64,000 nucleotides of DNA from Eledone cirrhosa (GCA_964016885.1 OZ024740.1:104594001-104658000); one strand, 5' to 3'; counted from the first letter of the stretch, positions 1,953-42,275 are shown. Program-made: numbers and translations. Notes: generated from the sequence alone by a model not told the origin.

Positions 1953-2429
1953 TCTACTTATAAATTACTTTAAATATATATAGTATGCTACTTGAAAGTC
2001 AAAAATCCGCTCCACCCCTTCACCCTCCTTGCTACCCCACGAGGGGCTGCGGTCAGCCACAATATCTCTCCCCCTTCGCCCCCCCCTCTCTTTCTTCCCC
2101 TCTATCTCTCTCTTAGCTACACACACACACACACATATATATATATAAGATAAGTTCTCCTTCATGTTTATTTCACTTTCGCCAATCCACCGCTGCTTCA
2201 ATTATCTCTATGATGTACTCATGTAAACCGTAAAGTACAAATTATTCTCTCCTTTCCACGCTCAATTTCGTACATAGTCCAAACAAACATCCAATCTCGC
2301 AAAATCCGAAATCTGTATTTTTTGTTATCTATTTAAGGTTTAAATACGGTGTTTTTGTCGTATTGAACAGAACAAATCTTGCAGTTTTGCTTTTTGTTAA
2401 ATCGCTTGTTAAACATTCATAACCTTCCA

Positions 2430-5400
2430 GCTAGCTACCCCACACCCCTCCCTCCCGCCCCCACACGCCACCATACTTAATACGTGGACCAATCATAAGC
2501 CAGAGCCCCCCCCCCCCCCCCCCCCCCCCCGCATCACCACCATTATTATAAGCCAGAGCCCCCCTTCCCCCACCCCCACGCATCACCATTATTATTATTA
2601 TTACGCGGACCAAATCATAAGCCAGAGGCCTATACTATCGCTTGCCCGGTTGCCTTCGATATATGATGGATGGATGGATGGACGGACGGACTGCGGAATC
2701 CTGGAGAGTGGAAGGGAGAGAAAAATCTGGACGCCCAGAGCGAAAATGCCAAAGTTAAAGTCAAATTCACCTCGTGGACGAGAATGCGAGCACTCCTCTT
2801 TGTTTCGTCCGCGGATGGCTAACATAACCCTATCTCCTCCCGCCCCCCACCACCCCCACCCTCCAAACGCAACCCAAAACTTCAGAGTTGGTACCATAAA
2901 TGTAGGCACCCTAAAGGGTCGCGCTAACGAGGTTGTAGAAATGCTTGAACGTAAGGAGGTCGATGTTTGTTGTATTCAAGAGACCAGGTGGAGGGGTGGG
3001 TCTGCTAGATTCATTGAGGGTAAAAAACGATGTTATAAGCTTTTCTGGGTGGGAAACGACGATGGGCTGGGTGGAGTAGGAATCATGGTAGCAGAAAAGT
3101 GGGCAGATAAGATAATAGACGTAAATAGAGTGAACGACAGAATAATTAAAATAAGACTTGTCCTCAATAGAACTACGGTGACAGTAATATCTGCGTACGC
3201 ACCCCAATCCGGACTGCCCGGCACTATAAAAGACAGATTCTATGAGACACTGTTGCTAACTACCTCCCAAATATCTGACAGTGACTATATAATTATTGCA
3301 GGCGACCTAAATGGTCACGTTGGACAACATTGTGACGGCTACGACGAAATCCATGGAGGCTATGGGTTTGGTACTAGAAATGAGGAAGGCTCCAGAATCC
3401 TGGAATACTGTGATGCAAATAACCTAACTATCTGTAACACTAACTTCAAAAAACGTGACAATCACCTGATTACCTATAGATCCGGGGAACACACAAGCCA
3501 GGTAGATTATATCCTTACCAGAAGACGTGACAGAGTGTCTGTTGTAAACACTAAATCCCTCCCCCATGAAGAATGCACCTCCCAACATAGACTGATAATT
3601 AGCGACCTCATAGTCAGGACGAGACGTACCCGACAGCAGAAGAGGACTATCCTCAGGAGGAAAATATGGAAACTAAAGGACCCCACAGCCAGAAATAAAT
3701 TTCAAAGCATATTACTTGATGCTTTCGACAGTAAGGAAGAGCATCTAGAATCGGACAATATAGAGGGACAGTGGAAATTTCTGAAAGCAAACCTGCTGTT
3801 GGCGACAGACGAGGTCTGTGGCTGGAGCAGGCCTGTAGGCAGGAGGAGAGTAACATGGTGGTGGAACAATAGGGTGGAGGGGTCAATTAAGGCCAAAAAG
3901 CAGGCTTGGAAAGTATGGCAGGATGGGGGAAGTAGAGTAGACTATCAAGTGGCCAGGAGGGAAGCTAGGAGAGAAGTGTACTTAGCAAGAAGGGAAGCGG
4001 AGGAAAGAAAGTTCAAGCATGTTCTACAACGCGATGACCAAAAACGTGAGGTGTTCAGGATTGCCAGGCAATGCGTCAAGGAAAACCGTGATATTGTCGG
4101 GGAGAAGTGTGTACTTAACGATGATGGCATACTTGCCATCACCGACACTGATAAGAAGGTAGCTTGGAAGTGTCACTATGAAAGGCTACTAAATGAGGAG
4201 AATAAATGGGAGAAAGACAGTCTCCCCCATATCGACCCGATAGAGGGACCAGCAGTGTTAGTCGAGGGGAGTATAATAAGTAAGGCAATCAAGGATATGA
4301 AGACTGGTAAGGCGGCTGGGCCTTCGGAAATAGTTGCTGAGATGCTGAAGGCATCTGGCACGGTGGGACACACCATGGTCACCCGCATAGTTAACCAAGT
4401 CGTACAGAATGGGGTTGTTCCGAAGGACTGGCATAGCAGCATCATCGTTAACTGTTATAAGGGTAAAGGAGACGCCCTAGATAGGAGTAACTATAGAGGC
4501 ATTAAATTAATCGACCAGGTCATGAAGGTCACGGAAAAAGTAATAGCGCAACTAATCAGAGAGAGAATTGATCTAGATGAAATGCAGTTCGGGTTTGTGT
4601 CAGGCAAAAGCACCACAGACGCTCTTTTCATAGTACGACAACTACAGGAGAAGTACCTAGCTAAAGGTAAACCCCTCTACTTAGCTTTTGTCGACCTGGA
4701 GAAAGCCTTCGACAGAGTCCCCCGCTCCATTATCTGGTGGGCTCTTAGAAAACTAGGCGTTGACGAATGGCTTGTGAGGGCTATACAAGCCATGTATAAA
4801 GAAACAGTCAGCAAGGTTAGAATTAACAACGAATATAGTGAAGAGTTTAGCGTAAAAGTTGGCGTCCATCAGGGCTCTGTTCTCAGCCCCCTACTATTTA
4901 TTATTGCCCTTCAGGCTATAACAGAGGAGTTCAAGACAGGCTGCCCATGGGAACTCCTATACGCAGACGACCTGACACTCATAGCGGAATCAATGGCCGA
5001 GCTAGAGAAGAAATTCCAAACATGGAAGCACGGCCTAGAGTCAAAAGGACTTAAAATTAACCTGGCTAAGACCAAAGTTCTAGTTTGTAGGAAAGAAAAC
5101 AAGGCGGCGGTCCCTTCTGGGAAATGGTCGTGCTCGGTATGTAGGAAAGGCGTAGGTAGAAACTCCATCTTATGTCCTAAATGCAAAGTATGGGTGCATA
5201 AAAGATGTAGTGGGATCACAGGTAAGCTAACTAAGAACATAGACTTTACATGTGGCCGATGTTCTGGTGCAATAAGTAGCAGCAAGTGCCCACAAAATAC
5301 TAGCTCTTTCAATTGCGCAGAGGGTTCTATAGAAATAGTGGACAGCTTCCGTTACCTGGGCGATAAAATCAGCAGTGGGGGAGGGTGCTCTGAAAGTACT

Positions 5401-6284
5401 GTAGCTAGAGTCAGAACTGGTTGGAAAAAGTTCAGAGAGCTTATACCACTATTAGCTGCTAAAGGGTTCTCCCTAAAAATGAAAGGCAGGTTGTACGATG
5501 CCTGCATACGAACAGCAATGTTGCATGGTAGTGAGACCTGGGCATTGTGTGCAGAGGATATACGCAGACTAGAGAGGAACGAAGCTTGCATGCTCCGCTG
5601 GATGTGTAACAGTAATATACGTGAACGGCAAAGCATAAACGAACTAAGGAAAAAATTAGAGATAAGAGGGATCAGATGTTGTTTACTCGAGAGAAGGCTG
5701 CGTTGGTATGGACACGTGATGCGCATGAAAGTCGATAGCTGTATTACAAAGTGCAGGGCAATAAAGATAGACGGTAGCCACGGAATAGGCAGACCTAGAA
5801 AAACATGGGATGAGCTGATAAACTCCGACCTCATACACTTACACCTCTCCAAGACAATGTCACTGGACCGTGACCTTTGGCGGTACTCAGTAACAGAGAA
5901 GACCCGCCTTGCCAGTAGGCATCTCTAACAAACTACACCCCGTCCCGCCACCACCCCCACCCCATCCACACCACCCCGTTCCATGTAAAGTTATGTTGGT
6001 GCCGCGCCATCCAGGCCGAAACAAACGAGATCGTGTAGGTGTCACGACAAAAAAACACACAGTCCACGCTGTAATGTGGCCGTGTAGGCAACACGGTAAA
6101 AACCTCCCAGACCCACACTGTAAATGTGGTTGGTGTTAGGAAGGGCATCCAACTGTAGAAAACCTGCCAGACAGTCCTATGCGAGCAAGACAATCACTCT
6201 TGCCTCAAGTGGGACTACCCCCGTCCAAACCCATGCAAGCGTGGAACACGGACGTTAAACGTTGATGATGATGATGATGATGAT
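2430..6284 (+). mobile_element. Near full-length RTE family A element (5' boundary uncertain)
   Basis: ORF, ~340-bp 3' UTR, terminal hairpin CCATGC-AA-GCGTGG and (GAT)n tail ending at 6284 in a TA repeat. Confidence 0.85.
2650..5928 (+). CDS. RTE-clade LINE family A polyprotein (APE endonuclease + RT with embedded C4HC3 finger), uninterrupted ORF; likely start at ATG 2746 (MPKLK) or 2815
   Basis: APE motifs GTINVGTL, VCCIQET, SAYAP, IAGDLNGH, QVDYIL, SQHRLI. RT motifs NYRGIKL, QFGF, FVDLEKAFDRV, GVHQGSVLSPLLF, LYADD, KTK, FRYLG. RTE-type C-terminus [11 protein letters not shown]...GRPRKTW. Confidence 0.95.
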   Translation: MPSIYDGWMDGRTDCGILESGRERKIWTPRAKMPKLKSNSPRGRECEHSSLFRPRMANITLSPPAPHHPHPPNATQNFRVGTINVGTLKGRANEVVEMLERKEVDVCCIQETRWRGGSARFIEGKKRCYKLFWVGNDDGLGGVGIMVAEKWADKIIDVNRVNDRIIKIRLVLNRTTVTVISAYAPQSGLPGTIKDRFYETLLLTTSQISDSDYIIIAGDLNGHVGQHCDGYDEIHGGYGFGTRNEEGSRILEYCDANNLTICNTNFKKRDNHLITYRSGEHTSQVDYILTRRRDRVSVVNTKSLPHEECTSQHRLIISDLIVRTRRTRQQKRTILRRKIWKLKDPTARNKFQSILLDAFDSKEEHLESDNIEGQWKFLKANLLLATDEVCGWSRPVGRRRVTWWWNNRVEGSIKAKKQAWKVWQDGGSRVDYQVARREARREVYLARREAEERKFKHVLQRDDQKREVFRIARQCVKENRDIVGEKCVLNDDGILAITDTDKKVAWKCHYERLLNEENKWEKDSLPHIDPIEGPAVLVEGSIISKAIKDMKTGKAAGPSEIVAEMLKASGTVGHTMVTRIVNQVVQNGVVPKDWHSSIIVNCYKGKGDALDRSNYRGIKLIDQVMKVTEKVIAQLIRERIDLDEMQFGFVSGKSTTDALFIVRQLQEKYLAKGKPLYLAFVDLEKAFDRVPRSIIWWALRKLGVDEWLVRAIQAMYKETVSKVRINNEYSEEFSVKVGVHQGSVLSPLLFIIALQAITEEFKTGCPWELLYADDLTLIAESMAELEKKFQTWKHGLESKGLKINLAKTKVLVCRKENKAAVPSGKWSCSVCRKGVGRNSILCPKCKVWVHKRCSGITGKLTKNIDFTCGRCSGAISSSKCPQNTSSFNCAEGSIEIVDSFRYLGDKISSGGGCSESTVARVRTGWKKFRELIPLLAAKGFSLKMKGRLYDACIRTAMLHGSETWALCAEDIRRLERNEACMLRWMCNSNIRERQSINELRKKLEIRGIRCCLLERRLRWYGHVMRMKVDSCITKCRAIKIDGSHGIGRPRKTWDELINSDLIHLHLSKTMSLDRDLWRYSVTEKTRLASRHL

Positions 6285-6324
6285 ATATATATATATATAT
6301 ACATACATACATACATACACATAT

Positions 6325-9300
6325 ATCATCATCATCATCATTTTACGTCCGCTTTTCCCTGCTTGCAAGGGTGGGACGGGTCTTATTCAGCACAGCATCT
6401 CTCCACTCGTCACGGTCCCTCGTCATCTTCACCGTGAGCTTCAATGATCTGAGGTCTGTTCTCACCACCTCCGCCCATGTTTTTCGTGGTCTACCTCTAC
6501 CACGTCTTCCTTCAACTGGCATTTCCTGGCACTTCTTCACCCATCGGTCATCCTCCATGCGCATCACATGTCCATACCACCTCAGTCTCCTCTCCCGTAC
6601 ACTACATTCTATCCCTCTCAGACACAGTCTCTCTCTCAACACATTTATGCTGGGTCGTTCACGCACATTTACACTGCACATCCAACGGAGCATGCTTGCC
6701 TCATTTCTCTCCAGCCGTCGCATATCCTCTGCAGTTGCTGCCCATGTCTCACTACCATGCAGCATCGCGCTCCTCACACAGGCATCATACAACCGGCCTT
6801 TCGTACGCAGGGAGAAACCCTTCTTCGTCAACAGAGGAAGCAGCTCCCTAAACTTCTTCCAACCCGTCCTTATTCTAGATACTATGGCCTCGGAACACCC
6901 TCCTCCCATGCTAATCTGATATCCTAGGTACCGGAAGCTATCCACCACTTCTATAGCGCCCTCTTGCATTTGAAAAATGTGTCTATCAGTGCGACTTCTA
7001 CTGTCTAATTTCCCTGTACATCTACTGCATACATATTTCTCCCTACCTGTTAGTTTGCCAGCTATCCCGCTACATCTCTTGTGTACCCAGGATCTGCATT
7101 GTGTGCATTTTATAGAATTTATGCCAGTTCCTTTTCTGCATATCGAACATGGCCATTTCCCTGACGGAATCAGGGTTTTGTCCTCTTTTCTACTCATCAA
7201 CACTTTTGTCTTAGCTAGATTCACTCTCAGTCCTCTTGCTTCCAACTGCTGTTTCCATAGCCAGAATTTATTCTCTAGCTCCTCTACTGATTCTGCTATA
7301 AGAACCAGATCGTCAGCATAGAGAAGTTCCCATGGACAGCCAGTCTTAAACTCCTCTGTTATGGCTTGGAGGACTATAATGAACAAGAGCGGGCTGAGGA
7401 CCGAACCCTGATGTACTCCTACTTGTATCTGGAATTCCTCACTAAACTCCATTCCTACCCTGACTTTACTGAGAGTACCTCTGTACAAAGTTTGCACTGT
7501 CCTCACAAGCCATTCCTCAACACCTAGCTTCCTTAGGGACCACCAGATGACAGATCGGGGTACCCTATCAAAGGCCTTCTCTAGGTCAACAAAGGCTAAG
7601 TATAGTGGCTTATTCTTCTCTAAGAACCTCTCTTGCATTTGTCTCACCAAGAAGAGGGCATCTGTTGTACTCTTCCCAGGCACAAAACCAAACTGCATCT
7701 CATCTAGTTTGACCCTTTCTCTAATTAGTTGTGCTAAAATCCTTTCTGCCACTTTCATAACCTGATCTATCAGTTTTATACCCCTATAATTGCTCCTCTC
7801 CAAAGCATCCCCTTTACCTTTGTAGCAATTTATGAGAATACTGCTGCACCAGTCTTTGGGTATGACACCACCATATATAGCCTGATTGATGATGCGTGCA
7901 ACCAGTTTAGTGCCTATGTCCCCTGATGCCTTAGCATCTCAGCAACTATTCCCGATGGTCCGGCCGCCTTACCATTTTTCATTTCCCTAATCGCCTCTTG
8001 GACCCTATATTCGTCAATCTCAATAGCTGGTCCCTCTGTCGGATCTACCAAGGGTAATTTCTCTCTCTCCCATTCGTTCTCCACATTCATCAGTCTCTCA
8101 TAATGACATTTCCAGGCCTCCTTTTTCTGATCATTCGTGACACTAAGTACACCGGCATCATCCCGGACACATTTATCTCCAACAACATCCTGATTTGCAT
8201 TGACACACTGCCTTGCAATGTGGAACACCGCACGCCTCTGATCTTCCCGTCGCAGAACATTGGCAAACCTCCTACTCTCTGCCTCCCTGCGTGCTAAATA
8301 CACCTGACGTCTAGCTTCTCTCTTAGTGGCTGTATATTCTTCCCTACTCCCACCCTTTTTCCAAGCCTTCCATGCTAGTCTTTTGTCTCTAATAGCCTTA
8401 TCTACTGTGCTGTTCCACCACCAGGTCACTCTCTGTCTGGTTGGAGCTCTGCTCCAGCCACAGGTTTCATCAGTAGCCTGCAGCAAGTTGTCACGTAAGA
8501 ACTTCCAGTTATTATCTGTGTCATACGTCTCTAAATCGTCTTCTTTTTCGTCATATACATCTTGAAGGGCTTTCCTAAATTTGTATTTTAGTGAAAGGTC
8601 TTTTAGCTTCCAGACGTTTCTTCTCCACACCTTCCTCTATGTCTCATTCCATCTCTTGCTTACTGAGATATCACTAACAACTAACCTATGCTGTGGGGTA
8701 CATTCTTCCCCAGGGTATGCCTTGGTATTAGACACTATCTGCCTGTCCCGCTGCCTAACTAGCAGGAAGTCAATCTGGCTTATGTGCTCACCAGATTTGT
8801 AGGTTATTAGGTGATTGGCAGGTTTCTGGAAGTTTGTGTTGCAAATAGTCAATGTACTCGCATCACAAAATTCAAGAAGTCTCACTCCTTCATTTCTTGA
8901 ACCGTAACCGTGCCCACCATGTACCCCAGTGTAACCATCCTGGAGCTGTCCAACATGACCATTGAAGTCTCCTGCTAGCATAACGATGTCTCCGTCCTCT
9001 GTCATTGTGGTTGTTTGCAAAAGTTGCTCATAAAAGCAGTCTTTCTCATCTTTGCCTAGGCCTGCTTGGGGAGCATAGACCGAGATGATTGTCAGTAGTC
9101 TCCTACCTACAACTAATCTAAGCTTAATTATTCGATTACTAACTCGAACTACCTCTATTGTCTTATTGATCCATTTCTCAGCCAGGAAAATGCCTACTCC
9201 CCCTAACCCATCATCCTTACCTACCCAGAATAGCTTATAGCTAAGACGTTTGCCTACGACTAGTCTCACAGAGGCACCCCTCCATCTCACCTCTTCCACG

Positions 9301-9590
9301 CAGCACACATCCACCTGCCTTCTCTCCAGCATCTCCGCTATTTCAGCAGATCTACCTCTGAGAGTGCCAACATTAAGTGTTGCAACTCTGAGATGCGACG
9401 TCTTCATATTTTGTTGCTGTGCTGATAAGCGTTTTGGCATTGATACACTGGTTGGATGCCCTTCCTAACACCAGCGCCACTTTACAGCATGGACTGGGTG
9501 CTTTTATTTGTGCCACCAGCACTAGAGAGGATGTCTTACTAGACTCAAGGGCCCTCTCTACCCCTCCATTTTACAGCATGGTCATTAAAA
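6325..9590 (-). mobile_element. RTE family C element, near full length, ORF broken by two frameshifts (~8635, ~7920)
   Basis: ORFs 8637-9440 (APE), 7914-8630 and 6343-7803 (RT + C4HC3) are colinear with family A. The (GAT)n tail directly follows the stop. Tail-to-tail with the family A copy. Confidence 0.93.
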
Positions 9591-9651: not shown

Positions 9652-10057
9652 GGTGGCTGCCAACTCGTTTTCGAGTACGGCCACTACTTTATATCCATGT
9701 AGGAGAACCCCTACCGATGCGCTAAACAAGTGTGACTTTTAGTCCAGCCAGCGACTTGAAAACTGGTACAAACACTACACCTGTGACAATTATTGACACA
9801 TAGTGCTGGGCCCATGGTACCATGTGACGACAAGTGCAGAGGGATCTCCAGATATAAAGCAATGCCTGTGCCGTGAAGCTTTTATAGTGAACAAAGGCAC
9901 TGCACAAAGCCAGTCCCACTCTCTTAACCAAGATGATATTTACCAAAAAAAAGAACAAGTCAACATCATTGGATACCATCAGGGTTGCAGGTGTTATATC
10001 AGAGTTTTCCTTCTCCTAGAATTCTGCCTTGACAAAGGCTAAGGGGTCATCTCTCCC
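9652..10057 (-). mobile_element. ~610-bp non-coding retroelement, 5'-truncated copy
   Basis: Near-identical to 40685-41093. Flanked by microsatellite. Confidence 0.85.
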
Positions 10058-10058
10058 T

Positions 10059-10295
10059 TATACATACATACATACACATATATATATATATATACATACA
10101 TACATACACACATATATATATATACATACATACATACACATATATATATATATATACATACATACATACACATATATATACATACATACACACATATATA
10201 TATATATACATACATACACATATATATACATACATACACATATATATACATACATACATACACATATATATATATACATACATACATACATATAT

Positions 10296-10326
<31 letters not shown>

Positions 10327-10367
10327 CATACATACATATATATACATACATACATACATACATATAT

Positions 10368-10398
<31 letters not shown>

Positions 10399-11275
10399 CA
10401 TACATATATATATATACATACATACATACATACACATATATATATACATACATACATACACATATATATATATACATACATACATACACATATATATATA
10501 CATACATACATACACACATATATATATATATATATATATACATACATACACACATATATATATATACATACATACATACATACACACATATATATATATA
10601 CATACATACATACATACACACATATATATATACATACATACATACATACACACATATATATATACATACATATATATATACATACATACATACACACATA
10701 TATATATATACATACATACATACATACACACATATATATATACATACATACATACATACACACATATATATATACATACATATATATATATATACATACA
10801 TACATACACACATATATATATACATACATACATACACACATATATATACATACATACATACATACATACACACACATATATATATATATATATACATACA
10901 TACATACATATATATACATACATACATACACACATATATATATATATATATATACATACATACATACACATATATATATATATATACATACATACATACA
11001 CATATATATATATATATACATACATACATACACATATATATATATATATACATACATACATACACATATATATATATATATACATACATACATACACATA
11101 TATATATATATATACATACATACACATATATATATATATACATACATACACATATATATATATATACATACATACACATATATATATATATACATACATA
11201 CACATATATATATATATACATACATACACATATATATATATATATACATACATACATACATACATATATACATAC

Positions 11276-11306
<31 letters not shown>

Positions 11307-11701
11307 CATACATACATACATACACACATATATATATATACATACATACATACATACACACATATATATATACATACATATATACATACATACATACATA
11401 CACACATATATATATATATATATATATACATACATACATACATATATATACATACATACATACACACATATATATATATATATATATACATACATACATA
11501 CACATATATATATATATATATACATACATACACATATATATATATATATACATACATACATACACATATATATATATATATATATACATACATACATACA
11601 CATATATATATATATATATATACAAACATACATACACATATATATATATATACATACATACATACACATATATATATATATATACATACATACATACACA
11701 T
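10059..11701. repeat. Compound (TA)n/(TACA)n microsatellite, ~1.6 kb
   Basis: Seen directly. Confidence 0.97.
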
Positions 11702-12515
11702 ATCATCATCATCATCATCATCACCGTTTTACGTCCGTTCTTCCACGCTAGCATGGGTTAGACGGGTTGTCCTGTTGTGGGCAGTGTCTGGTCGGCTGAC
11801 CATGCCTTGCTCATACAGGAACTGATCTGGCTTGATTTCTACAGCTGGATGCCCTTCCTAACACCAACCTCATTTACAGTGAGTGCTGGGTGCTTTTTCG
11901 TGGCGCCTACACGTCCACTTTACAGTGTGGGCTGGGTGCTTTTTTGCCGTGGCACCTCCACGACCACCTTGCGGTGGGGGGGGGGGGGCATATTGTTTAT
12001 ATGCTTCAGCATGTACCCATGGGAGGTCGGGTACCCTGTATTACTGCGTGACGCCAGAAGTCACGGTCGTGTGTCATTGACTTTGAGAGGTGTAGTTGGG
12101 TAAGGTCGGCTTTTATCACCTCATCCCAAGTCATCTTGGGTCTCCCCACTCCGCGGTTTCCATCAACTTCTAGTGCTCTGCACCTTTTTATGCAGCTGTC
12201 ATCCTTCATACGCATCACATGTCCATACCAGCGTAACCGCCTCTCCTGCACGCAGCATTTGATTCCTCTTATGCTCAGTCTCTCTCTCGATTCATTTATG
12301 CTTTGTCGTTCACGTATATTACTGTTACACATCCATCGGAGCATGCAGGCTTCGTTTCTCTCTAATCTACGTAGGTCTTCCACCTTCAGCGCCCAGGTCT
12401 CACTACCATGCAACATCGCTGTTCGGATACACGCATCATACAGTCTGCCTTTCATTCTGAGGGAGAAGCCTTTTGCAGCTAGCAGTGGTAGTAGTTCCCT
12501 AAACTTCTTCCATCC
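11702..12515 (-). mobile_element. RTE family B, 5'-truncated copy
   Basis: Reverse complement of ~30841-31655. ORF 12006-12455 and (GAT)n tail. Confidence 0.92.
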
Positions 12516-13311
12516 CTATATATATATATATACATACATACATACACATATATATATATATATATACATACATACATACACATATATATATATATATACA
12601 TACATACATACACATATATATATATACATACATACATACACATATATATATATATACATACATACATACATATATATATATACATACATACATACATATA
12701 TACATACATACATATATACATACATACATACACATATATATATATACATACATACATACATACACATATATATATATATACATACATACATACACACATA
12801 TATATATATATACACATACATACATACACACATATATATATATATACACATACATACATACACACATATATATATATATATACACATACATACATACACA
12901 CATATATATATATATACATACATACACACATATATATATATATACATACATACACACATATATATATATATATATATACATACATACACATATATATATA
13001 TACATACATACACATATATATATATATACATACACATATATATATATACATACATACACATATATATATATATACATACACATATATATATACATACATA
13101 CATACACATATATATATACATACATACATACACATATATATATATATACATACATACATACACATATATATATACATACATACATACACATATATATATA
13201 TATATACATACATACACATATATATATATATATACATACATACACATATATATATATACATACATACATACACATATATATATATATACATACATACATA
13301 CACATATATAT
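12516..13311. repeat. Compound (TA)n/(TACA)n microsatellite
   Basis: Seen directly. Confidence 0.97.
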
Positions 13312-13722
13312 GGTGGCTGCCAACTCGTTTTCGAGTACGGCCACTACTTTATATCCATGTACGAGAACCCCTACCGATGCGCTGAACAAGTGTGACTTTT
13401 TAGTCCAGCCAGCGAGTTGAAAACTCTGGTACAAACACTACACCTGTGACAATTATTGACACATAGTGCTGGGCCCATGGTACCATGTGACGACAAGTGC
13501 AGAGAGATCTCCAGATATAAAGCAATGCCTGTACCGTGAAGCTTCTATAGTGAGCAAAGGCACTGCACAAAGCCAGTCCCACTCTCTTAACCAAGATGAT
13601 ATTTACCAAAAAGAAGTACAAGTCAGCATCATTAGATACCATCAGGGTTGCAGGTTTTATATCAGAGTTTTCCTTCTCCTAGAATTCTGCCTTGACAAAG
13701 GCTAAGGGGTCATCTCTCCCGG
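13312..13722 (-). mobile_element. ~610-bp non-coding retroelement, 5'-truncated copy
   Basis: Same sequence as 9652-10057. Confidence 0.85.
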
Positions 13723-14852
<1,130 letters not shown>

Positions 14853-15089
14853 GGTGGCTGCCAACTCGTTTTCGAGTACGGCCACTACTTTATATCCATG
14901 TAGGAGAACCCCTACCGATGCGCTGAACGAGTGTGACTTTTTAGTCCAGCCAGCGACTTGAAAACTCTGGTACAAACACTACACTTGTGACAATTACTGA
15001 CACATAGTGCTGGGCCCATGGTACCATGTGACGACAAGTGCAGAGAGATCTCCAGATATAAAGCAATGCCTGTGCCGTGAAGCTTTTAT
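14853..15089 (-). mobile_element. ~610-bp non-coding retroelement, heavily 5'-truncated copy
   Basis: Same 3' end (GGTGGCTGCCAACTCG on +), 237 bp. Confidence 0.85.
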
Positions 15090-15488
15090 GTATATATATA
15101 TATACATACATACATACATACACATATATATATATATACATACATACATACATACATACACATATATATATATATACATACATACATACATACACATATA
15201 TATATATATACATACATACATACATACACATATATATATATATATACATACATACATACATACACATATATATATATATACATACATACACATATATATA
15301 TATATACATACATACACATATATATATATATACATACATACATATATATATATATATACATACATACATACATATATATACATACATACATATATATATA
15401 TATATACATACATACATACATATATATACATACATACATATATATATATATATACATACATACATACATATATATACATACATACATA

Positions 15489-15520
<32 letters not shown>

Positions 15521-16110
15521 CATACACATATATACATACACACATATTTACATACACACACATATATACATACACATATACATACATACACATATATATA
15601 TATACATACATACATACACACATACACATATATATATATATATACATACATACATACACATATATACATACATACATACACATATATACATACATACATA
15701 CACATATATACATACATACATACACATATATACATACATACATACACATATATATATACATACATACATACATACACATATATACATACATACATACACA
15801 TATATATATATATATACATACATACATACATACACATATATATATACATACATACACATATATATATATACATACATAAACATACACATATATATATACA
15901 TACATAAACATATATATATATACATACATAAACATATATACATACATATATATATATATAAATACATACATACACATATATACATATATATATACATATA
16001 TACATACATATATACACATATATACATACATATATACATACATATATAAATAAATATATATACATACATATATAGATACATATATACATACATATAGATA
16101 TAAATATATA
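15090..16110. repeat. Compound (TA)n/(TACA)n microsatellite
   Basis: Seen directly. Confidence 0.97.
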
Positions 16111-19100
16111 GAACCACGGTGACAGTAATATCTGCGTACGCACCCCAATCCGGACTGCCCGGCACTATAAAAGACAGATTCTATGAGACACTGATGCTAA
16201 CTACCTCCCAAATATCCGACAGTGACTATATAATTATCGCAGGCGACCTAAATGGTCACGTTGGACAACATTGTGACGGCTACGACGAAATCCATGGAGG
16301 CTATGGGTTTGGTACTAGAAATGAGGAAGGCTCCAGAATCCTGGAATTCTGTGATGCAAATAACCTAACTATCTGTAACACTAACTTCAAAAAACGTGAC
16401 AATCACCTGATCACCTATAGATCCGGGGAACACACAAGCCAGGTAGATTATATCCTTACCAGAAGACGTGACAGAGTGTCTGTTGTTAACACTAAATCCC
16501 TCCCCCATGAAGAATGCACCTCCCAACATAGACTGATAATTAGCGACCTCATAGTCAGGACGAGACGTACTCGACAACAGAAGAGGACTATCCTCAGGAG
16601 GAAAATATGGAAGCTAAAGGACCCCACAGCCAGGAATAAATTTCAAAGCATATTACTTGATGCTTTCGACAGTAAGGAAGAACATTTAGAGTCGGACAAT
16701 ATAGAGGGAGAGTGGGAATTTCTGAAAGCAAACCTGCTGTTGGCGACAGACGAGGTCTGTGGCTGGAGCAGGCCTGTAGGCAGGAGGAGAGTAACATGGT
16801 GGTGGAACAGTAAGGTGGAGGGGTCAATTAAGGCCAAAAAGCAGGCTTGGAAAGTATGGCGGGATGGGGGAAGTAGAGAGGACTATCAAGTGGCCAGGAG
16901 GGAAGCTAGGAGACAAGTGTACTTAGCAAGAAGGGAAGCTGAGGAAAGAAAGTTCAAGCATGTTCTACAACGCGATGACCAAAAACGTGAGGTGTTCAGG
17001 ATTGCTAGGCAATGCGTCAAGGAAAACCGTGATATTGTCGGGGAGAAGTGTGTACTAAACGACGATGGCACACTTGCCATCACCGACGCTGATAAGAAGG
17101 TAGCTTGGAAGTGTCACTATGAAAGGCTTCTAAATGAGGAGAATAATTGGGAGAAAGGCAGTCTCCCCCATATCGACCCAATAGAGGGACCAGCAGTGTT
17201 AGTCGAGGGGAGTATAATAAGTAAGGCAATCAAGGATATGAAGACTGGTAAGGCGGCTGGGCCTTCGGAAATAGTTGCTGAGATGCTGAAGGCATCTGGC
17301 ACGGTGGGACACACCATGGTCACCCGCATAGTTAACCAAGTCGTACAGAATGGGGTTGTTCCGAAGGACTGGCATAGCAGCATCATCGTTAACTGTTATA
17401 AGGGTAAAGGAGACGCCCTAGATAGGAGTAACTATAGAGGCATTAAATTAATCGACCAGGTCATGAAGGTCACGGAAAGAGTAATAGCGCAACTAATCAG
17501 AGAGAGAATTGACCTAGATGAAATGCAGTTCGGGTTTGTGTCAGGCAAAAGTACCACAGACGCTCTTTTCATAGTACGACAACTACAGGAGAAGTACCTA
17601 GCTAAAGGTAAACCCCTCTACTTAGCTTTTGTCGACTTGGAGAAAGCCTTCGACAGAGTCCCCCGCTCCATTATCTGGTGGGCTCTTAGAAAACTAGGCG
17701 TTGACGAATGGCTTGTGAGGGCTATACAAGCCATGTATAAAGAAACAGTCAGCAAGGTTAGAATTAACAACGAATATAGTGAAGAGTTTAGCGTAAAAGT
17801 TGGCGTCCATCAGGGCTCTGTTCTCAGTCCACTACTATTTATTATTGCCCTTCAGGCTATAACAGAGGAGTTCAAGACAGGCTGCCCATGGGAACTCCTA
17901 TACGCAGACGACCTGACACTCATAGCGGAATCAATGGCCGAGCTAGAGAAGAAATTCCAAACATGGAAGCACGGCCTAGAGTCAAAAGGACTTAAAATTA
18001 ACCTGGCTAAGACCAAAGTACTAGTTTGTAGGAAAGAAAACAAGGCGGCGGTCCCTTCTGGGAAATGGTCGTGCTCGGTGTGTAGGAAAGGCGTAGGTAG
18101 AAACTCCATTTTATGTCCTAAATGCAAAGTATGGGTGCATAAAAGATGTAGTGGGATCACAGGTAAGCTAACTAAGAACATAGATTTTGCGTGTGGCCGG
18201 TGCTCTGGTGCAATAAGTAGCAGCAAGTGCCCACAAACTACTAGCTCTTTCAATTGCGCAGAGGGTTCTATAGAAATAGTGGACAGCTTCCGTTACCTGG
18301 GCGATAAAATCAGCAGTGGGGGAGGGTGCTCTGAAAGTACTGTAGCTAGAGTCAGAACTGGTTGGAAAAAGTTCAGAGAGCTTATACCACTATTAGCTGC
18401 TAAAGGGTTCTCACTAAAAATGAAAGGCAGGTTGTACGATGCCTGCATACGAACAGCAATGCTGCATGGCAGTGAGACCTGGGCATTGTGTGCAGAGGAT
18501 ATACGCAGACTAGAGAGGAACGAAGCTTGCATGCTCCGCTGGATGTGTAACAGTAATATACGTGAACGGCAAAGCATAAACGAACTAAGGAAAAAATTAG
18601 AGATAAGAGGGATCAGATGTTGTTTACTCGAGAGAAGGCTACGTTGGTATGGACACGTGATGCGCATGAAAGTCGATAGCTGTATAACAAAGTGCAGGGC
18701 AATAAAGATAGACGGTAGTCACGGAATAGGCAGACCTAGAAAAACCTGGGACGAGCTGATAAACTCCGACATCACACACTTACACCTCTCCAAGACAATG
18801 TCACTGGACCGAGACCTTTGGCGGTACTCAGTAACAGAGAAGACCCGCCTTACCTAAATATATAGTAAAACCTACTCCAGCCAGTAGGCATCTCTAACAA
18901 AATACACCCCGTCCCACCACCCCCACCCCCACCCGATCCACACCACCCCGTTCTATGTAAAGTTATGTTGGTGCCGCGCCTTCGAGGCCGAAACAAATGA
19001 GATCGTGTAGGTGTCACGACAAAAAACACACAGTCCACGCTGTAATGTGGCCGTGTAGGCAACACGGTAAAAACCTCCCAGACCCACACTGTAAATGTGG

Positions 19101-28317: not shown

Positions 28318-31300
28318 ATAGGTACCATCAATGTAGGCTCAATGAAAGGAAGAGCAGGAGAAATCGTAGAAATGCTAGAGCGAAAGGAAGTTGATGTATG
28401 CTGTGTGCAAGAGACTAGATGGAGAGGAGGGTCTGCTAGAGTCCTTGTAGGAAAAAGCCAGTGCTACAAATTTTTCTGGGTGGGAAATGACGATGGGATG
28501 GGTGGTGTAGGTATACTATTAGCTGACAAGTGGGTAGATAAAGTAATCTCAGTGTACAGGGTAAATGCAAGAATCATTAAACTCAGACTAGTCCTGAATA
28601 AGACAATTACCACAATAATATCAGCTTACGCACCCCAATCGGGGCTGCCAGACGAACTTAAGGATAGGTTTTACGAGTCCCTAATACACACTACTGCTCT
28701 AACAGACGACAAGGACTTCCTAATCATTGCAGGAGATTTTAACGGACACGTAGGTAAACACTGCGACGGCTTCAATAGAGTACATGGAGGCCATGGAGTT
28801 GGCACAAGGAATGAGGAAGGATTCAGACTTCTAGAATTCTGCGACGCCAATGACATGTCGATATGTAACACAAACTTTAAAAAACCCGACAACCACCTGA
28901 TCACCTATAGATCAGGGGAGCACTCTAGTCAGTTAGATTTTATCCTCATCAGAGGACGTGACAGATGGACGGTCGTAAACACAAAAGCCTTCCCTAGTGA
29001 GGAATGTACATCCCAACATAGCTTAGTTGTCAGCGACCTCACGGTCAGAACTAGACGAGCCCTGAAACAGAGGCCAACCTGGAGAAGAAAGATCTGGAAG
29101 CTGAAAGTCCCCTCAACCAGTAACAGATTTAAAGATATTTTACTCAACGCCTACGACAGTAAAGAAGAACAGATAGAGACATTTAACGTAGAAGAGAACT
29201 GGGAGTTCCTAAAAAATAACTTACTAGAGGCGACGGATGAGGTTTGTGGCTGGAGTAAGACCTCAAGCAGGAGGAGAGTGACTTGGTGGTGGAACAATAA
29301 GGTAGATGAAGCAGTCAAGGCCAAGAGACAGGCATGGAAAGAATGGAAGAACGGGGGGAGCAGGGTACATTACATAGAGACCAAGAGGGAAGCTAGGCGA
29401 CAAGTATACTTAGCTAGGAGGGAAGCAGAGGATAGAAAATTCAAGCATGTTTTACAACGTGAGGACCAGAAACAGGAGGTATTCAAGATTGCGAGGCAGT
29501 GTGTCAGAGATAGTTGTGATGTCATTGGAGAGAAGTGTATCCGGAATGATAAAGGTGAGCTTGCCCTCACAAGTGCTGAGAAGAAAGATGCATGGAAGAG
29601 TCATTATGATAGATTACTAAATGAGGAGAATGCATGGGAAGAAGAGACCCTACCCCACGTAGACCCTATAGAGGGACCAGCAGTACAAGTCAGCGGCAGC
29701 GTAGTAAGTAAGGCAATCAGAGATATGAAGATAGGGAAGGCAACCGGTCCATCGGGTATAGCTGCCGAGATGCTGAAGGCATCTGGGTCTGTAGGTCACA
29801 CTATAACCACACGTATCGTTAACCAGGTAATACTAGAGGGGGCCATACCAAAAGATTGGTGCAGTAGCATCATTGTCAACTGCTACAAAGGTAAAGGCGA
29901 TGCACTAGATAGAGGAAACTATAGAGGTATAAAGTTGATGGACCAGGTCATGAAAGTAACAGAAAGAGTTATAGCACAGCTGATTAGGGACCGGGTGAAT
30001 ATAGACGAGATGCAATTTGGGTTTGTTCCAGGGAAAGGCACCACTGATGCGCTCTTCCTTGTGAGGCAATTACAGGAAAAGTACCTAGCTAAAAGTAAGC
30101 CACTCTACTTGGCATTTGTCGACCTTGAGAAAGCCTTTGACAGAGTTCCACGTGCAGTAATCTGGTGGGCTCTTAGAAAACTAGGAGTAGATGAATGGCT
30201 TGTGAAAGCGGTACAAGCCATGTATAGGGGAGCAGTCAGCAAAGTTAGGATTGGCAATGAGTATAGCGAGGAATTTAGCGTACAGGTTGGGGTCCACCAG
30301 GGCTCTGTTCTTAGCCCTCTCCTGTTCATCATAGTCCTGCAGGCAATAACGGAGGAGTTTAAGACCGGATGCCCATGGGAACTCCTGTATGCTGATGACC
30401 TCGCACTCATAGCTGAATCTATGGTAGAACTAGAGAATAAATTCCAAACCTGGAAGCAGGGACTAGAGAGAAAGGGCCTCAAAGTCAACATGACAAAGAC
30501 TAAGGTCCTTATAAGTAGACGAGAAAACAGAACCCAGATCCCCTCAGGGAAATGGCCTTGCTCAGTATGTAGGAAAGGTGTAGGTAGGAACTCCATTCTT
30601 TGCCCCAAATGCAAACAATGGGTACACAAGAGATGTAGCGGGATCTCAGGAAGCTTAATTAAGAATGTAGGATTCACATGCAGCAGCTGTGCTGAAACAG
30701 CAAGCAAACAGCCACAGGAAACAAGTACCACCAATCTCTGGGAGGGCCCTGTAGAAACAGTAGACAGCTTCTGCTACCTAGGTGACCGAATTAGCAACGG
30801 AGGTGGGTGCTCAGAAAGTACAATAACTAGGGTAAGAACGGGATGGAAGAAGTTTAGGGAACTACTACCACTGCTAGCTGGAAAAGGCTTCTCCCTCAGA
30901 ATGAAAGGCAGACTGTATGATGCGTGTATCCGAACAGCGATGTTGCATGGTAGTGAGACCTGGGCGCTGAAGGTGGAAGACTTACGTAGATTAGAGAGAA
31001 ACGAAGCCTGCATGCTCCGATGGATGTGTAACAGTAATATACGTGAACGACAAAGCATAAATGAATTGAGAGAGAGACTGAGCATAAGAGGAATCAAATG
31101 CTGCGTGCAGGAGAGGCGGTTACGCTGGTATGGACATGTGATGCGTATGAAGGATGACAGCTGCATAAAAAGGTGCAGAGCACTAGAAGTTGATGGAAAC
31201 CGCGGAGTGGGGAGACCCAAGATGACTTGGGATGAGGTGATAAAAGCCGACCTTACCCAACTACACCTCTCAAAGTCAATGACACACGACCGTGACTTCT

Positions 31301-31655
31301 GGCGTCAACGCAGTAATACAGGGTACCCGACCTCCCATGGGTACATGCTGAAGCATATAAACAATATGCCCCCCCCCCCCCACCGCAAGGTGGTCGTGGA
31401 GGTGCCACGGCAAAAAAGCACCCAGCCCACACTGTAAAGTGGACGTGTAGGCGCCACGAAAAAGCACCCAGCACTCACTGTAAATGAGGTTGGTGTTAGG
31501 AAGGGCATCCAGCTGTAGAAATCAAGCCAGATCAGTTCCTGTATGAGCAAGGCATGGTCAGCCGACCAGACACTGCCCACAACAGGACAACCCGTCTAAC
31601 CCATGCTAGCGTGGAAGAACGGACGTAAAACGGTGATGATGATGATGATGATGAT
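28318..31655 (+). mobile_element. RTE family B element, truncated at the start of APE; ORF open for ~1,000 codons with a +1 frameshift near the end (~31307)
   Basis: ORF 28258-31437 (N-terminal ~20 aa are microsatellite). APE, RT and C4HC3 motifs. The C-terminus differs from 12006-12455 by one inserted base. (GAT)n tail. Confidence 0.93.
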
Positions 31656-38114: not shown

Positions 38115-38348
38115 ATTTAGGAACAGTTTAGGTATGATACATTTTATTACTAATTATATCTAAATGTTTCTTCTCTCTTCATAATGTATTTTTAACTCTG
38201 ATACTGGTTCAGTCTGGTTCAAACTGAATTGGTCTGTCCCAGTCATTCATTGAGCAACATCGGTGAAGTTGGCACCCTTAACTCACAGTTGGGTGCGGAT
38301 GCATTCATGTATATATGTGTGTGTCCGCATGTATCTGTGTGTTTCTAA

Positions 38349-39230
<882 letters not shown>

Positions 39231-39440: not shown

Positions 39441-40684
<1,244 letters not shown>

Positions 40685-41636: not shown

Positions 41637-41669
<33 letters not shown>

Positions 41670-41672
41670 CAT

Positions 41673-42271: not shown

Positions 42272-42275
42272 TATG

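What the first reader, a model, noticed from the sequence alone, without database searches (positions are those of the whole stretch)
6031..9530. Covarying pseudoknot-hairpin RNA module (Ceph-domain) sits 5' of the ATG in RTE family C but 3' of the stop in families A and B
Seen: a repeated unit of stem, A-rich linker, loop-complementary segment, CAG, and a hairpin with a CUGUAA(A) loop, ending in G(T/C)TGG-TGTTAGGAAGGGCAT-CCA(A/G)C. Family A (6031-6153): TCGTG-TAGGTGT-CACGA-CAAAAAA-ACAC. Family B (31393-31515): GTCGTGG-AGGTG-CCACGGC-AAAAAA-GCACC. Family C (9447-9530, minus): GTG-CTGGTGG-CAC-AAATAAAA-GCACC. The loop/3' pairing (GTGT/ACAC vs GGTGC/GCACC) and the hairpin stems (CACA/TGTG vs CTCA/TGAG) covary, implying H-type pseudoknots. 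In family C the module ends ~10 nt before ATGCCAAAA. Known: this sequence resembles the Ceph-SINE central domain. Inference: an RTE 5' leader element (IRES-like, promoter or self-cleaving RNA) that families A/B acquired as a 3' module, probably by capturing a SINE-like derivative. Every short 5'-truncated copy therefore spreads it.
Basis: partly seen in the sequence, partly recalled or inferred. Interest (0 to 1): 0.76.

Follow-up and report, generated by a model that had tools for sequence, protein, structure and literature searches.

The report
Shared RNA module of RTE retrotransposons
A non-coding module of about 95 bases with two covarying hairpins is built into the 5' leader of one RTE retrotransposon family, the 3' end of its sister families and a tRNA-derived SINE; it likely moved between them through leader-plus-tail derivatives, and its predicted role as a protein-binding RNA signal is untested.

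Summary
It belongs to the elements and is not a neighbouring insertion. All 30 genomic copies of the family C 5' end carry it directly upstream of ATGCCAAAA. None of 40 family C 3' ends has it. Families A and B carry two tandem units near the 3' end and none in their leaders. Among 50 RTE tails found independently in 590 kb of random genome, 38 have the module, which extrapolates to about 2x10^5 copies.

Covariation supports the first stem and the CUGUAA(A) hairpin, and only weakly the GGUGUUAGGAAGGGCAUCCA stem. It does not support the proposed pseudoknot. No Rfam family or ribozyme matches.

The module is not the published Ceph domain. That domain's conserved RTE word occurs unchanged elsewhere in the window, in a different repeat. 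A tRNA-CORE SINE carries the module fused to the family C tail, and a non-coding three-module element also exists.

Family A keeps a relic of the old 3' hairpin at its ORF end, so the module block was probably appended behind an older terminus.

Verdict: a new variant of the known reuse of RTE 5' parts. Its function is untested. Interest is moderate.

The parts
2150..6284 (+). RTE family A, full-length copy. Leader about 2150-2745 (5' edge approximate, no module), ORF 2746-5928 starting ATGCCAAAG, 3' region 5929-6263, (TGA)n 6264-6284.
   Evidence: Pfam finds endonuclease, RT and a PHD finger. The leader is shared by genomic copies. No module hit in the leader.
5899..5919 (+). Relic of the older 3'-terminal hairpin inside the end of the A ORF (AAGACCCG..CCTTGCCAGTAGG). 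It corresponds to the very end of family C.
   Evidence: Local alignment to the C end scores 25, against a shuffle mean of 15.4; 8 of 1000 shuffles reach it. The protein ends match..EKTRLASRHL* in A and ..[14 protein letters not shown] in C.
6031..6079 (+). A unit 1: stem S1 6031-6035/6043-6047, A-run 6048-6055, CACACAG 6056-6062, hairpin 6064-6068/6075-6079 with loop CTGTAA.
6080..6174 (+). A unit 2 plus 3' half: S1 6080-6084/6092-6096, CCTCCCAG 6103-6110, hairpin 6113-6117/6125-6129 (loop CTGTAAA), P4 TTGG 6130-6133 / CCAA 6149-6152 around TGTTAGGAAGGGCAT, then CTGTAGAAAACCTGCCAGACAG.
6220..6263 (+). A 3'-terminal region, homologous to the ends of B and C. Predicted RT recognition hairpin.
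   Evidence: Alignment of the C end to this region scores 46; 0 of 1000 shuffles reach it.
6338..9586 (-). RTE family C copy, cut at the 5' end within the leader T-run and lying tail to tail with A. Leader 9586-9441, ATGCCAAAA at 9440, reading frame broken into three pieces (9464-8637, 8636-7914, 7938-6343). The frame runs through the terminal hairpin to TAA 6345-6343, directly before (TGA)n. No 3' module.
9441..9581 (-). C leader module. Hairpin 0 is 9581-9566 (CCAT-GCTGTAAA-ATGG). A CORE-like stretch CCCTTGAG..CCTCTCTA runs 9551-9523. S1 GTG 9522-9520 / CAC 9512-9510. A-run 9509-9502. GCACCCAG 9501-9494. Hairpin CCAT 9492-9489 / GTGG 9480-9477. CTGG 9474-9471, loop 9470-9456, CCAA 9455-9452. 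Spacer 9450-9441.
   Evidence: (30 of 30 copies)
28321..31655 (+). RTE family B copy, cut at the 5' end inside the endonuclease region. Unit 1 is 31393-31442 and holds the stop TAA 31435-31437 in its hairpin loop. Unit 2 plus P4 is 31444-31512. The terminal region and (TGA)n reach about 31655.
11760..11966 (-). Second B-type 3' end carrying both units.
59975..60400 (+). Element D: three C-type modules in tandem (59990-60087, 60121-60215 and a decayed third). The first is followed by ATGCCAAAAGG. No ORF; likely a non-autonomous derivative.
   Evidence: L042 680-1000 is a relative ending in an RTE-like (TGA)n tail.
60930..61410 (-). Two older B-like 3' ends (core motif at 60957 and 61289). The 61289 copy has loop GGAG opposite CTCC, the one clear compensatory change in the proposed pseudoknot.

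Best explanation
The unit is a non-coding sequence module of the RTE retrotransposons of this genome, about 95 nt long, and it is likely a structured sense-strand RNA element.

Anatomy:
- a short stem S1, then an A-run and the word CCCAG;
- a 4-5 bp hairpin with a CUGUAA(A) loop;
- the invariant GGUGUUAGGAAGGGCAUCCA;
- (AU)GCCA(A/G)AA at the 3' edge.

Shown:
- It is built into the 5' leader of family C.
- It is built into the 3' region of A/B-type families and many older RTE lineages.
- It is built into a tRNA-CORE SINE that ends in the family C tail.
- It was part of the reverse-transcribed RNA, because copies are cut at varying points inside it.

Inferred origin:
- It began as leader sequence next to the ancestral start ATGCCAAA.
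- An internally deleted leader-plus-tail derivative arose.
- That block was appended behind the old 3' end of the A/B ancestor, by read-through or by template switching during target-primed reverse transcription.

Predicted and untested function: the hairpins present the conserved single-stranded words as a binding platform, for the element's own protein or for a host RNA-binding protein. This would help the RNA enter the retrotransposition complex, and it works at either end of the RNA.
For: Family membership:
- 30 of 30 C 5' ends carry the module. Of these, 21 share a leader of about 288 nt, 3 start at the T-run, and 6 are cut at different points inside it.
- 40 of 40 long matches to the C 3' end are colinear, with no module.
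- The leaders of A (20 loci) and B (19 loci) have no module. The only hits lie in neighbouring elements beside two truncated copies.

Conservation:
- ORF nucleotide identity is 67-69% between A/B and C, while the module is 82-83% identical.
- In 12 3'UTR lineages, unit 2 plus P4 has mean column identity 0.87, the spacer 0.72 and the terminal hairpin region 0.85. These lineages were found through the module, which inflates its figure.
- With unbiased ascertainment through the tail, 38 of 50 tails have the module.

Structure:
- S1 covariation is 0.404 against 0.215, with 45 double-change cells against 18.2 expected; 0 of 500 shuffles reach it.
- The hairpin scores 0.219 against 0.126, with 22 cells against 7.4; 0 of 500 shuffles reach it.
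- G.U pairs are frequent in abundant young families, for example UG in 39 rows at the first P4 pair. This fits the sense strand.

Origin:
- Homology between the C leader and the 3' block runs from S1 through GCCA(A/G)AAAC, and in variant C2 on to TATGAGCA.
- ATGCC(C)AAA also stands at the ORF start of A and C and as a frame-shifted relic in B.
- A keeps a relic of the old terminal hairpin at its ORF end.
- Carriers of module plus tail exist: the SINE and element D.
- Kojima 2018 (PMC5786205; abstract, passages, section 21) documents RTE 5' parts in SINE bodies and in bipartite non-autonomous RTEs.
Against: - No RNA data could be obtained, so transcription, folding and binding are all untested.
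- RNAfold energies are no better than shuffles, with z between +0.03 and -0.84.
- The structural alignment was fitted to the model for S1, the hairpin and P4, and the copies are related. The shuffle controls therefore overstate significance.
- P4 is weak: 27 of 500 shuffles reach its score. Its UUGG can pair equally well with the upstream CCAG, a pairing that is invariant and so carries no information.
- The relic is not significant in B (327 of 1000 shuffles).
- The direction of transfer is inferred. Capture of SINE sequence by the C leader is not excluded.
- The most successful family, A, has lost the loop/3' complementarity in unit 2, so not every feature is needed.
Confidence: 0.55

Rival explanations
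1. SINE first. The module is body sequence of a CORE-type SINE. It was captured separately at the 5' end of the C lineage and at the 3' end of the A/B lineage, and it persists there as a passenger or as an adopted signal.
For: - A tRNA-CORE SINE carries the module. In random DNA, 10 of 26 SINE heads are followed by it.
- C-type leader units look CORE-like over their whole length: CCTTGAG..AAGACA..CCTCTCT..CCCAG plus the CUGUAAA hairpin, repeated three times in variant C2. This is by eye against CORE strings printed.
- The SINE's module is almost identical to B's units.
Against: - The module's 3' edge carries the ORF start word ATGCCAAA, which A also uses as its start although it has no leader module.
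- In the SINE the module lies behind a separate, canonical CORE, in the position where other SINEs hold RTE-derived parts (Kojima 2018 supplement).
- Homology to the C leader continues past the module.
Confidence: 0.25
2. Each unit folds into an H-type pseudoknot (S1 loop GGUG(C) pairing with GCACC behind the A-run), and the whole acts as an IRES-like or self-cleaving leader RNA.
For: - The two words are complementary in most copies: 72% of cells pair, against 21-45% when the partner is slid.
- The geometry is plausible (S1 5-7 bp, a 1-nt first loop, an A-rich third loop).
- There is one clear compensatory variant, GGAG/CTCC at window 61289, and A unit 1 has GTGT/ACAC.
Against: - No covariation: score 0.072 against 0.077 (336 of 500 shuffles as high), and 5 double-change cells against 6.5 expected.
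- The pairing is broken in A unit 2 (GGCAA against CCTCC) and mismatched in B unit 2, both in the youngest and most abundant families.
- No ribozyme or other Rfam family matches, including in full-length leaders.
- There is no preferred 5' end of copies inside the module.
- In variant C2 the module lies about 200 nt from the start codon.
Confidence: 0.1
3. It acts as DNA, as an internal promoter or transcription-factor site that works in either position. The stems would be incidental.
For: - The longest invariant stretches are words that the model leaves single-stranded (the 20-mer, CCCAG, CTGTAAA).
- LINE leaders usually hold internal promoters (general knowledge).
- Non-autonomous derivatives keep the module.
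Against: - Compensatory changes and frequent G.U pairs, which would be C.A mismatches on the other strand, point to RNA.
- A promoter at the 3' end would not help the element's own transcription.
- In C the module sits far from the 5' end of the leader.
Confidence: 0.1
4. It has no function. It is a hitch-hiking piece of UTR that looks conserved only because of recent recombination among active families.
For: - Module exchange is recent and frequent: the SINE joins B-type units to a C-type tail.
- The 48-nt half unit expands into tandem arrays like a minisatellite.
- Families without a 3' module exist and are mobile.
Against: - It is kept in at least 12 diverged 3'UTR lineages, at the level of the terminal hairpin region and well above the spacer. 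The ascertainment caveat applies.
- The stems keep pairing through sequence change.
- Every family examined has it at one end or the other.
Confidence: 0.15

Closest known systems
RTE 5'-UTR parts reused in SINE bodies and in bipartite (5' part plus 3' tail) non-autonomous RTEs (Kojima 2018, Genome Biol Evol, PMC5786205)
   Same: - A piece of RTE leader that is not the extreme 5' end, and is sometimes duplicated.
- It reappears in a tRNA-CORE SINE directly in front of the RTE tail, and in ORF-less derivatives.
- Tails are exchanged between elements.
   Different: - Here the same block also sits at the 3' end of autonomous RTE families (A, B and many older lineages).
- It is a different sequence from the widely conserved RTE 5'-UTR domain of that paper.
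- That paper does not address secondary structure (passages and sections seen; whole text not read).
Ceph domain of squid and cuttlefish SINEs (Akasaki 2010, known to me only through Kojima 2018 and its supplement)
   Same: - The architecture is tRNA head, then a CORE-like part, then an RTE-leader-derived part.
- There is a CCAG followed by a small hairpin with a G-UAAA loop (GCTAT-GGGTAA-ATAGC in SepiaSINE, seen by eye).
   Different: - The defining words are absent from the module. CCAGCTATGGGTAAATAGCA has 0 hits in the window.
- TCTAGGAGAAGGAAAACTCTGA occurs only in another repeat, E.
CORE domain of CORE-SINEs (MIR; bivalve BivaCORE-SINE2, Nishihara 2016 supplement; octopus OR1/OR2 named in PMC4824008 and PMC4758252)
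   Same: - CCAG followed by a hairpin with a CUGUAAA loop. MIR1_AMi has CCCCAT-CTGTAAA-ATGGGG and BivaCORE-SINE2 has ACTCA-GCTGTAAA-TGAGT. The module has CTCA/TGAG, CCACA/TGTGG and CCAT/ATGG.
- C-type leader units also hold CCTTGAG..AAGACA..CCTCTCT.
   Different: - The comparison is by eye only.
- The A/B units lack the 5' half of CORE.
- S1 plus the A-run is an insertion relative to CORE.
- The SINE in this genome has a canonical CORE in addition to the module.
3'-terminal stem-loop of stringent-type LINEs, recognised by their reverse transcriptase (general knowledge)
   Same: A conserved small hairpin in the LINE 3' region that is shared with partner SINEs.
   Different: That role fits the separate terminal region (A 6220-6263, and the C end). 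The module lies upstream of it, is absent from C's 3' end and occurs in a 5' leader.
HDV-like self-cleaving ribozymes of RTE and other LINE leaders (Ruminski 2011, as cited in Kojima 2018)
   Same: A structured RNA in an RTE leader for which a pseudoknot has been proposed.
   Different: - No Rfam match.
- It is not at the 5' terminus.
- Copies show no common cut site.
- It also occurs in 3' regions, where cleavage would remove the tail.
RTE-2_OV, the RTE reported as expressed in octopus brain (Petrosino 2022, PMC9115989, passages)
   Same: - One ORF of about 1100 aa with endonuclease and RT.
[quoted passage not shown]
   Different: No UTR module is described in the passages seen.

Membership tests
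RTE-clade LINE (carrier elements A, B, C) | A single ORF with an N-terminal AP-type endonuclease and a reverse transcriptase | tested here: met
   Pfam Exo_endo_phos and RVT_1 in A, B and in the pieces of C. A/B protein identity is 75% and A/C is 63%.
RTE-clade LINE (carrier elements A, B, C) | A short 3' end with a microsatellite tail instead of poly(A) | tested here: met
   (TGA)n tails behind a conserved terminal region.
RTE-clade LINE (carrier elements A, B, C) | Placement within the RTE clade in an RT phylogeny | not tested
No reference RT set was used.
Ceph domain (Ceph-SINE superfamily) | 5' part with CCTTGGGAAAG, then CCTCCAGCTATGGGTAAATAGCA | tested here: not met
   The 20-nt word has 0 hits in the window at 3 or fewer mismatches. 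By eye there is only a loose likeness (CCAG plus a small hairpin).
Ceph domain (Ceph-SINE superfamily) | 3' half equal to the conserved RTE 5'-UTR domain with ..TCTAGGAGAAGGAAAACTCTGA.. | tested here: not met
   The word is present with 0 mismatches at 9999-10020, 13662-13683 and 41035-41056 (all minus strand). These lie in repeat E, not in any module.
CORE domain (CORE-SINE superfamily) | About 65 nt with CCTTG(A/G)GCAAG(A/T)CACTT .. CTCAG .. CTGTAAAATGG | tested here: inconclusive
   - The canonical word is in 12 of 141 loci, in SINE heads and not in the module.
- The module and the C leader units resemble both halves by eye.
- No alignment statistic could be computed, because I did not type published CORE sequences into the alignment tools.
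CORE domain (CORE-SINE superfamily) | It lies behind a pol III (tRNA) head | tested here: not met
   Most modules lie in RTE 3' regions or leaders with no tRNA head. Only the SINE copies have one.
H-type pseudoknot | A second helix between the S1 loop and the downstream strand, kept by compensatory change | tested here: not met
   Covariation is at shuffle level and the pairing is broken in A unit 2. Complementarity exists, so the fold is not excluded.
Self-cleaving ribozyme (HDV-like, hammerhead, twister and others) | A match to a known catalytic core | tested here: not met
   Nothing at or near threshold in the window, the three module regions, or full-length leaders of A, B and C.
Self-cleaving ribozyme (HDV-like, hammerhead, twister and others) | Cleavage activity | not testable with these tools
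   Needs an in vitro assay. As indirect evidence, copies have no shared 5' end inside the module.
Bipartite non-autonomous RTE or RTE-tailed SINE | A leader-derived part joined directly to the 3' terminal part of the partner LINE, with no ORF | tested here: met
   In the SINE, the module is followed directly by 42 nt identical to the C end. Element D has three leader-type modules and no ORF.

The most novel reading that the evidence does not exclude
[quoted passage not shown] CORE is the oldest and still unexplained SINE body. On this reading it is a portable RNA signal of RTE leaders that any RTE-mobilised RNA needs in cis, and it works at the 5' end, the 3' end or the middle of the RNA.
Probability: 0.15. 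Interest if true: 0.75.

Novelty: new variant of a known kind. Interest (0 to 1): 0.42.

Why it matters
Conserved middle parts of SINEs and conserved pieces of RTE leaders are known, but nobody knows what they do. Here one such piece comes with three useful properties:
- it has a simple anatomy supported by covariation;
- it occurs naturally in three contexts (5' leader, 3' region, SINE body);
- it belongs to very young families with many identical copies.

That makes the question directly testable: does the element work as RNA, what binds it, and does position matter? It also gives a concrete case of an autonomous LINE rebuilding its 3' end by taking up a leader-plus-tail derivative. Finally, it explains one of the most abundant sequence words of this genome, extrapolated at about 2x10^5 copies.

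Tried and rejected
- **RNA evidence.** The one search for sequencing runs listed no RNA holder. The four runs I laid are contigs of unknown kind. They show only that the module core is covered far more deeply than its flanks, and that contigs of two other coded organisms span the module-ATG junction. This says nothing about expression.
- **Thermodynamic folding.** Not better than shuffles, and the minimum-energy folds differ between families.
- **Rfam.** Nothing at gathering level. Sub-threshold hits are chance or driven by microsatellites.
- **ARAGORN and my A-box/B-box pattern.** ARAGORN found no tRNA in the window and one unrelated tRNA in 876 kb. My own pattern found 0 heads in front of modules. 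Both were false negatives: the SINE head became visible only when I read the flanks, and Rfam's tRNA model scores it 28.1 bits against a gathering score of 29.
- **Alternative helix.** Upstream CCAG pairing with UUGG is 91% paired but nearly invariant, so it is uninformative. One column of that test was misplaced onto a gap column.
- **Earlier findings of the scan.** Nothing.
- **Papers.** Gilbert & Labuda 1999 is not held. The SINEBase supplements are unreadable. The words TTAGGAAGGGCATCC and GGTGTTAGGAAGGG occur in no main text of the library. Repbase, Dfam and SINEBase could not be searched, so the module may already be part of a deposited consensus.
- **Pumilio-type UGUANAUA site in the loop.** Considered and dropped, because the loop variants do not keep that consensus.

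Full report
**1. What is there**

The window comes from a 3.0-Gb animal genome and is packed with RTE-type retrotransposons.

The core word GGTGTTAGGAAGGGCATCCA occurs 20 times at 3 or fewer mismatches, with none expected by chance. Reading the flanks sorts them as follows:
- 14 lie in 3' ends of family A;
- 4 lie in B-type 3' ends (11846-, 31492+ and the older 60957-, 61289-);
- 1 lies in front of the family C reading frame (9453-);
- 1 lies in a non-coding element D (60172+).

Pfam finds endonuclease, reverse transcriptase and a PHD finger in A, B and the pieces of C. ORF nucleotide identity is 74.5% for A/B and 67-69% for A/B against C. The module is 82-83% identical between A/B and C, and the terminal 52 nt are 81% identical.

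**2. It belongs to the elements**

- I took the 30 best genomic matches to the first 246 nt behind the module (40 were scored; one of the 30 is the window itself). All 30 have module sequence directly upstream.
- Of these, 21 share one leader of about 288 nt: a TG-rich part, GTCGTGTCAATAAG, a T-run of variable length, and then the module region.
- Three start at the T-run, the window copy among them.
- Six are cut at different points inside the module or leader. Such 5' truncations show that the module was part of the reverse-transcribed RNA.

At the other end of C, all 40 long matches to its last 285 nt are colinear, so C has no 3' module. Its frame runs through the terminal hairpin to a TAA directly before (TGA)n.

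Families A and B each have at least 40 copies that are 100% identical over 260-280 nt. Their long leaders hold no module. In 20 A loci and 19 B loci, the only hits are neighbouring elements beside two truncated copies.

One correction to the finding concerns B. Its frame stays open into the first unit, and the stop is the TAA in the loop of the first CUGUAAA hairpin (31435-31437).

**3. Abundance and contexts**

In 59 arbitrarily placed 10-kb stretches (590 kb) an nhmmer profile finds 94 hits. Of these, 47 include the 3' half.
- 31 are followed by the RTE terminal motif and (TGA)n.
- 13 are followed by one of these two marks.
- 3 are unclear.
- None is in a leader.

This extrapolates to about 2x10^5 copies in the genome.

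When RTE tails are ascertained independently of the module, 38 of 50 have a module within 260 nt upstream. The other 12 are very short truncations or families with a C-type end.

The 48-nt half unit (S1, A-run, GCACCCAG, hairpin) also forms tandem arrays, about 25 units long in L031.

**4. Structure**

Single-sequence folding is unremarkable, with z between +0.03 and -0.84. I therefore tested covariation:
- I built a covariance model from 15 representatives with S1, the hairpin and P4.
- The model collected 90 matches (76 distinct rows) from 667 kb.
- I counted pairs on that alignment.

| Helix | Covariation score vs shuffle mean | Double-change cells vs expected | Shuffles as high (on score) |
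|---|---|---|---|
| S1 | 0.404 vs 0.215 | 45 vs 18.2 | 0 of 500 |
| CUGUAA(A) hairpin | 0.219 vs 0.126 | 22 vs 7.4 | 0 of 500 |
| P4 | 0.199 vs 0.178 | 6 vs 1.1 | 27 of 500 |
| Proposed pseudoknot helix | 0.072 vs 0.077 | 5 vs 6.5 | 336 of 500 |

- **Hairpin.** In a direct table of 150 hairpin sites, 12 of the 13 arm-pair types seen at least twice form 4-5 pairs.
- **P4.** The UUGG of P4 can pair just as well with the upstream CCAG, but that pairing is invariant and so uninformative.
- **Pseudoknot helix.** This helix was not part of the model. Its words are complementary in most copies (72% of cells). The pairing is lost in unit 2 of family A and mismatched in unit 2 of B.
- **Strand.** G.U pairs are common in young families, which fits the sense strand.
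- **Caveats.** The alignment is fitted to the model, and the rows are related copies. Shuffle counts therefore overstate significance, and several 'cells' may stem from one event. For example, all 14 A-U to U-A cells in the hairpin are B-type.

**5. Where it came from**

- **Extent of homology.** Homology between the C leader and the 3' blocks runs from S1 to GCCA(A/G)AAAC. In a close variant of C (C2, in L051) it runs on to TATGAGCA.
- **Start-codon word.** The module's 3' edge is (ACC)ATGCCA(A/G)AA in old 3' copies. The same word is the first in-frame ATG of A and C, and stands as a frame-shifted relic in B.
- **Relic in A.** Family A keeps a relic of the C-type terminal hairpin at the very end of its ORF (8 of 1000 shuffles reach the score; the proteins end ..KTRLASR..). 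A second, functional-looking terminal region lies 340 nt downstream, behind the modules. In B the relic is not significant.
- **SINE carrier.** One carrier of module plus tail is a SINE. Its parts, in order, are:
  - a tRNA-related head (Rfam tRNA 28.1 bits, E 6e-4);
  - a canonical CORE domain;
  - a small hairpin;
  - one B-type module;
  - 42 nt identical to the family C end.
- **SINE abundance.** In random DNA, 10 of 26 such heads are followed by the module.
- **Element D.** It has three leader-type modules and no ORF.

From this I infer the following order: leader sequence next to the start codon, then an internally deleted leader-plus-tail derivative, then fusion behind the old 3' end of the A/B ancestor and behind a tRNA-CORE head. 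The direction is inferred, not shown.

**6. Comparison with what is known**

Kojima 2018 showed three relevant things (PMC5786205; abstract, find passages, section 21 and supplement passages):
- RTE 5'-UTR parts form the middle of many SINEs.
- Bipartite non-autonomous RTEs exist.
- The original Ceph domain is a CORE-like part plus a widely conserved RTE 5'-UTR domain.

The module is not that domain:
- Its word TCTAGGAGAAGGAAAACTCTGA occurs unchanged three times in the window, but in a different 400-nt repeat flanked by microsatellites.
- CCAGCTATGGGTAAATAGCA does not occur at all.

By eye, the module's CCAG plus CUGUAAA hairpin resembles the 3' half of CORE:
- MIR1_AMi has CCCCAT-CTGTAAA-ATGGGG.
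- BivaCORE-SINE2 has CCAGTCTACTCAGCTGTAAATGAGTACGTGGTTGG (Nishihara 2016 supplement).
- C-type leader units also show CCTTGAG..AAGACA..CCTCTCT.

I could not score this resemblance, because I did not type published sequences into the alignment tools. It remains a lead.

Other papers, seen as passages only:
- Octopus CORE-SINEs OR1 and OR2 are named in PMC4824008 and PMC4758252.
- Petrosino 2022 describes an octopus RTE whose ORF ends at a microsatellite, like family C.
- The 2026 repeat annotation lists RTE and tRNA-CORE families but no UTR module in the passages seen.

**7. How it probably works**

Shown:
- The module is part of the RNA template.
- It is conserved more than the coding sequence.
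- It keeps two small stems through sequence change.
- It occurs at either end of autonomous elements, and in non-autonomous ones that need no translation.

Inferred: it acts as sense-strand RNA, with the stems presenting invariant single-stranded words.

Predicted and untested: these words bind the element's protein or a host protein, and this favours entry of the RNA into the retrotransposition complex.

Three observations argue against a start-codon-linked role such as an IRES:
- ORF-less derivatives retain the module.
- It has a 3' location in A and B.
- It lies about 200 nt from the start codon in C2.

The lack of any ribozyme match, and of a common cut site, argues against self-cleavage.

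**8. Limits**

- There are no RNA data.
- No repeat library was available.
- The conservation profile of the 12 3'UTR lineages was ascertained through the module itself.
- The 5' edge of A is approximate.
- The CORE and Ceph comparisons are by eye.
- Supplements I could not read (SINEBase; file 1 of Nishihara 2016) may hold the octopus SINE sequences that would settle whether this SINE, and with it the module, is already deposited.

Noticed in passing
window 9660-10060 (-), 13440-13725 (-), about 41035 (-): A repeat E of about 400 nt, flanked by long microsatellite arrays, holds AGCCTTTGTCAAGGCAGAATTCTAGGAGAAGGAAAACTCTGAT. [quoted passage not shown] One copy lies just upstream of the truncated family C copy.
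   Followed up: partly
L031 31-1272 (-); also L118 4340-4594, L034 6204-6497: The 48-nt half unit (S1, A-run, GCACCCAG, CUGUAA hairpin) is amplified into tandem arrays of up to about 25 units in front of an RTE 3' end.
   Followed up: partly
window 31435-31437: The family B frame reads about 43 codons beyond the point where A stops. It passes through a C-run and into the first module unit, and ends at the TAA in the hairpin loop.
   Followed up: partly
window 2746-5928, 28321-31437, 6343-7938: All three RTE families have a PHD-finger match between the RT domain and the C-terminus (Pfam E 3e-6 to 8e-6). I did not compare this with other RTE clades.
   Followed up: no
G000: At least 40 scored copies each of the A and B 5' regions are 100% identical over 260-280 nt, which points to very recent or ongoing activity.
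   Followed up: no
L051 150-800 (-): A variant of family C (C2) has three tandem CORE-like units in its leader. It has CTGCCAAAA instead of ATGCCAAAA, and about 190 extra nt before the start ATGAAGACG.
   Followed up: partly
L014 2589-2900, L013 2152-2470, L129 1460-1811 (-) and others: An abundant SINE with this order of parts: tRNA-related head, canonical CORE, a GATGATAGGGAC..GTCCCTATCATT hairpin, a CCAC-TGCAAA-GTGG hairpin, one module, and the family C tail. Sixteen further heads in the random sample (of 26) are not followed by the module.
   Followed up: partly
window 6264-6340: The full-length A copy and the C copy lie tail to tail. Their (TGA)n tails are separated only by a (TA)n/(TACA)n microsatellite. 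Many insertions in the window abut microsatellites in the same way.
   Followed up: no
window 10020-16200, 38250-42750, 50700-52650 and others: Long stretches are open in all six frames, that is, kilobase-scale microsatellite-like arrays between the retroposons.
   Followed up: no
window 47730-47990 (-): An A-type 3' end in which unit 2 plus P4 is duplicated in tandem. This is a third kind of internal duplication of the module.
   Followed up: no
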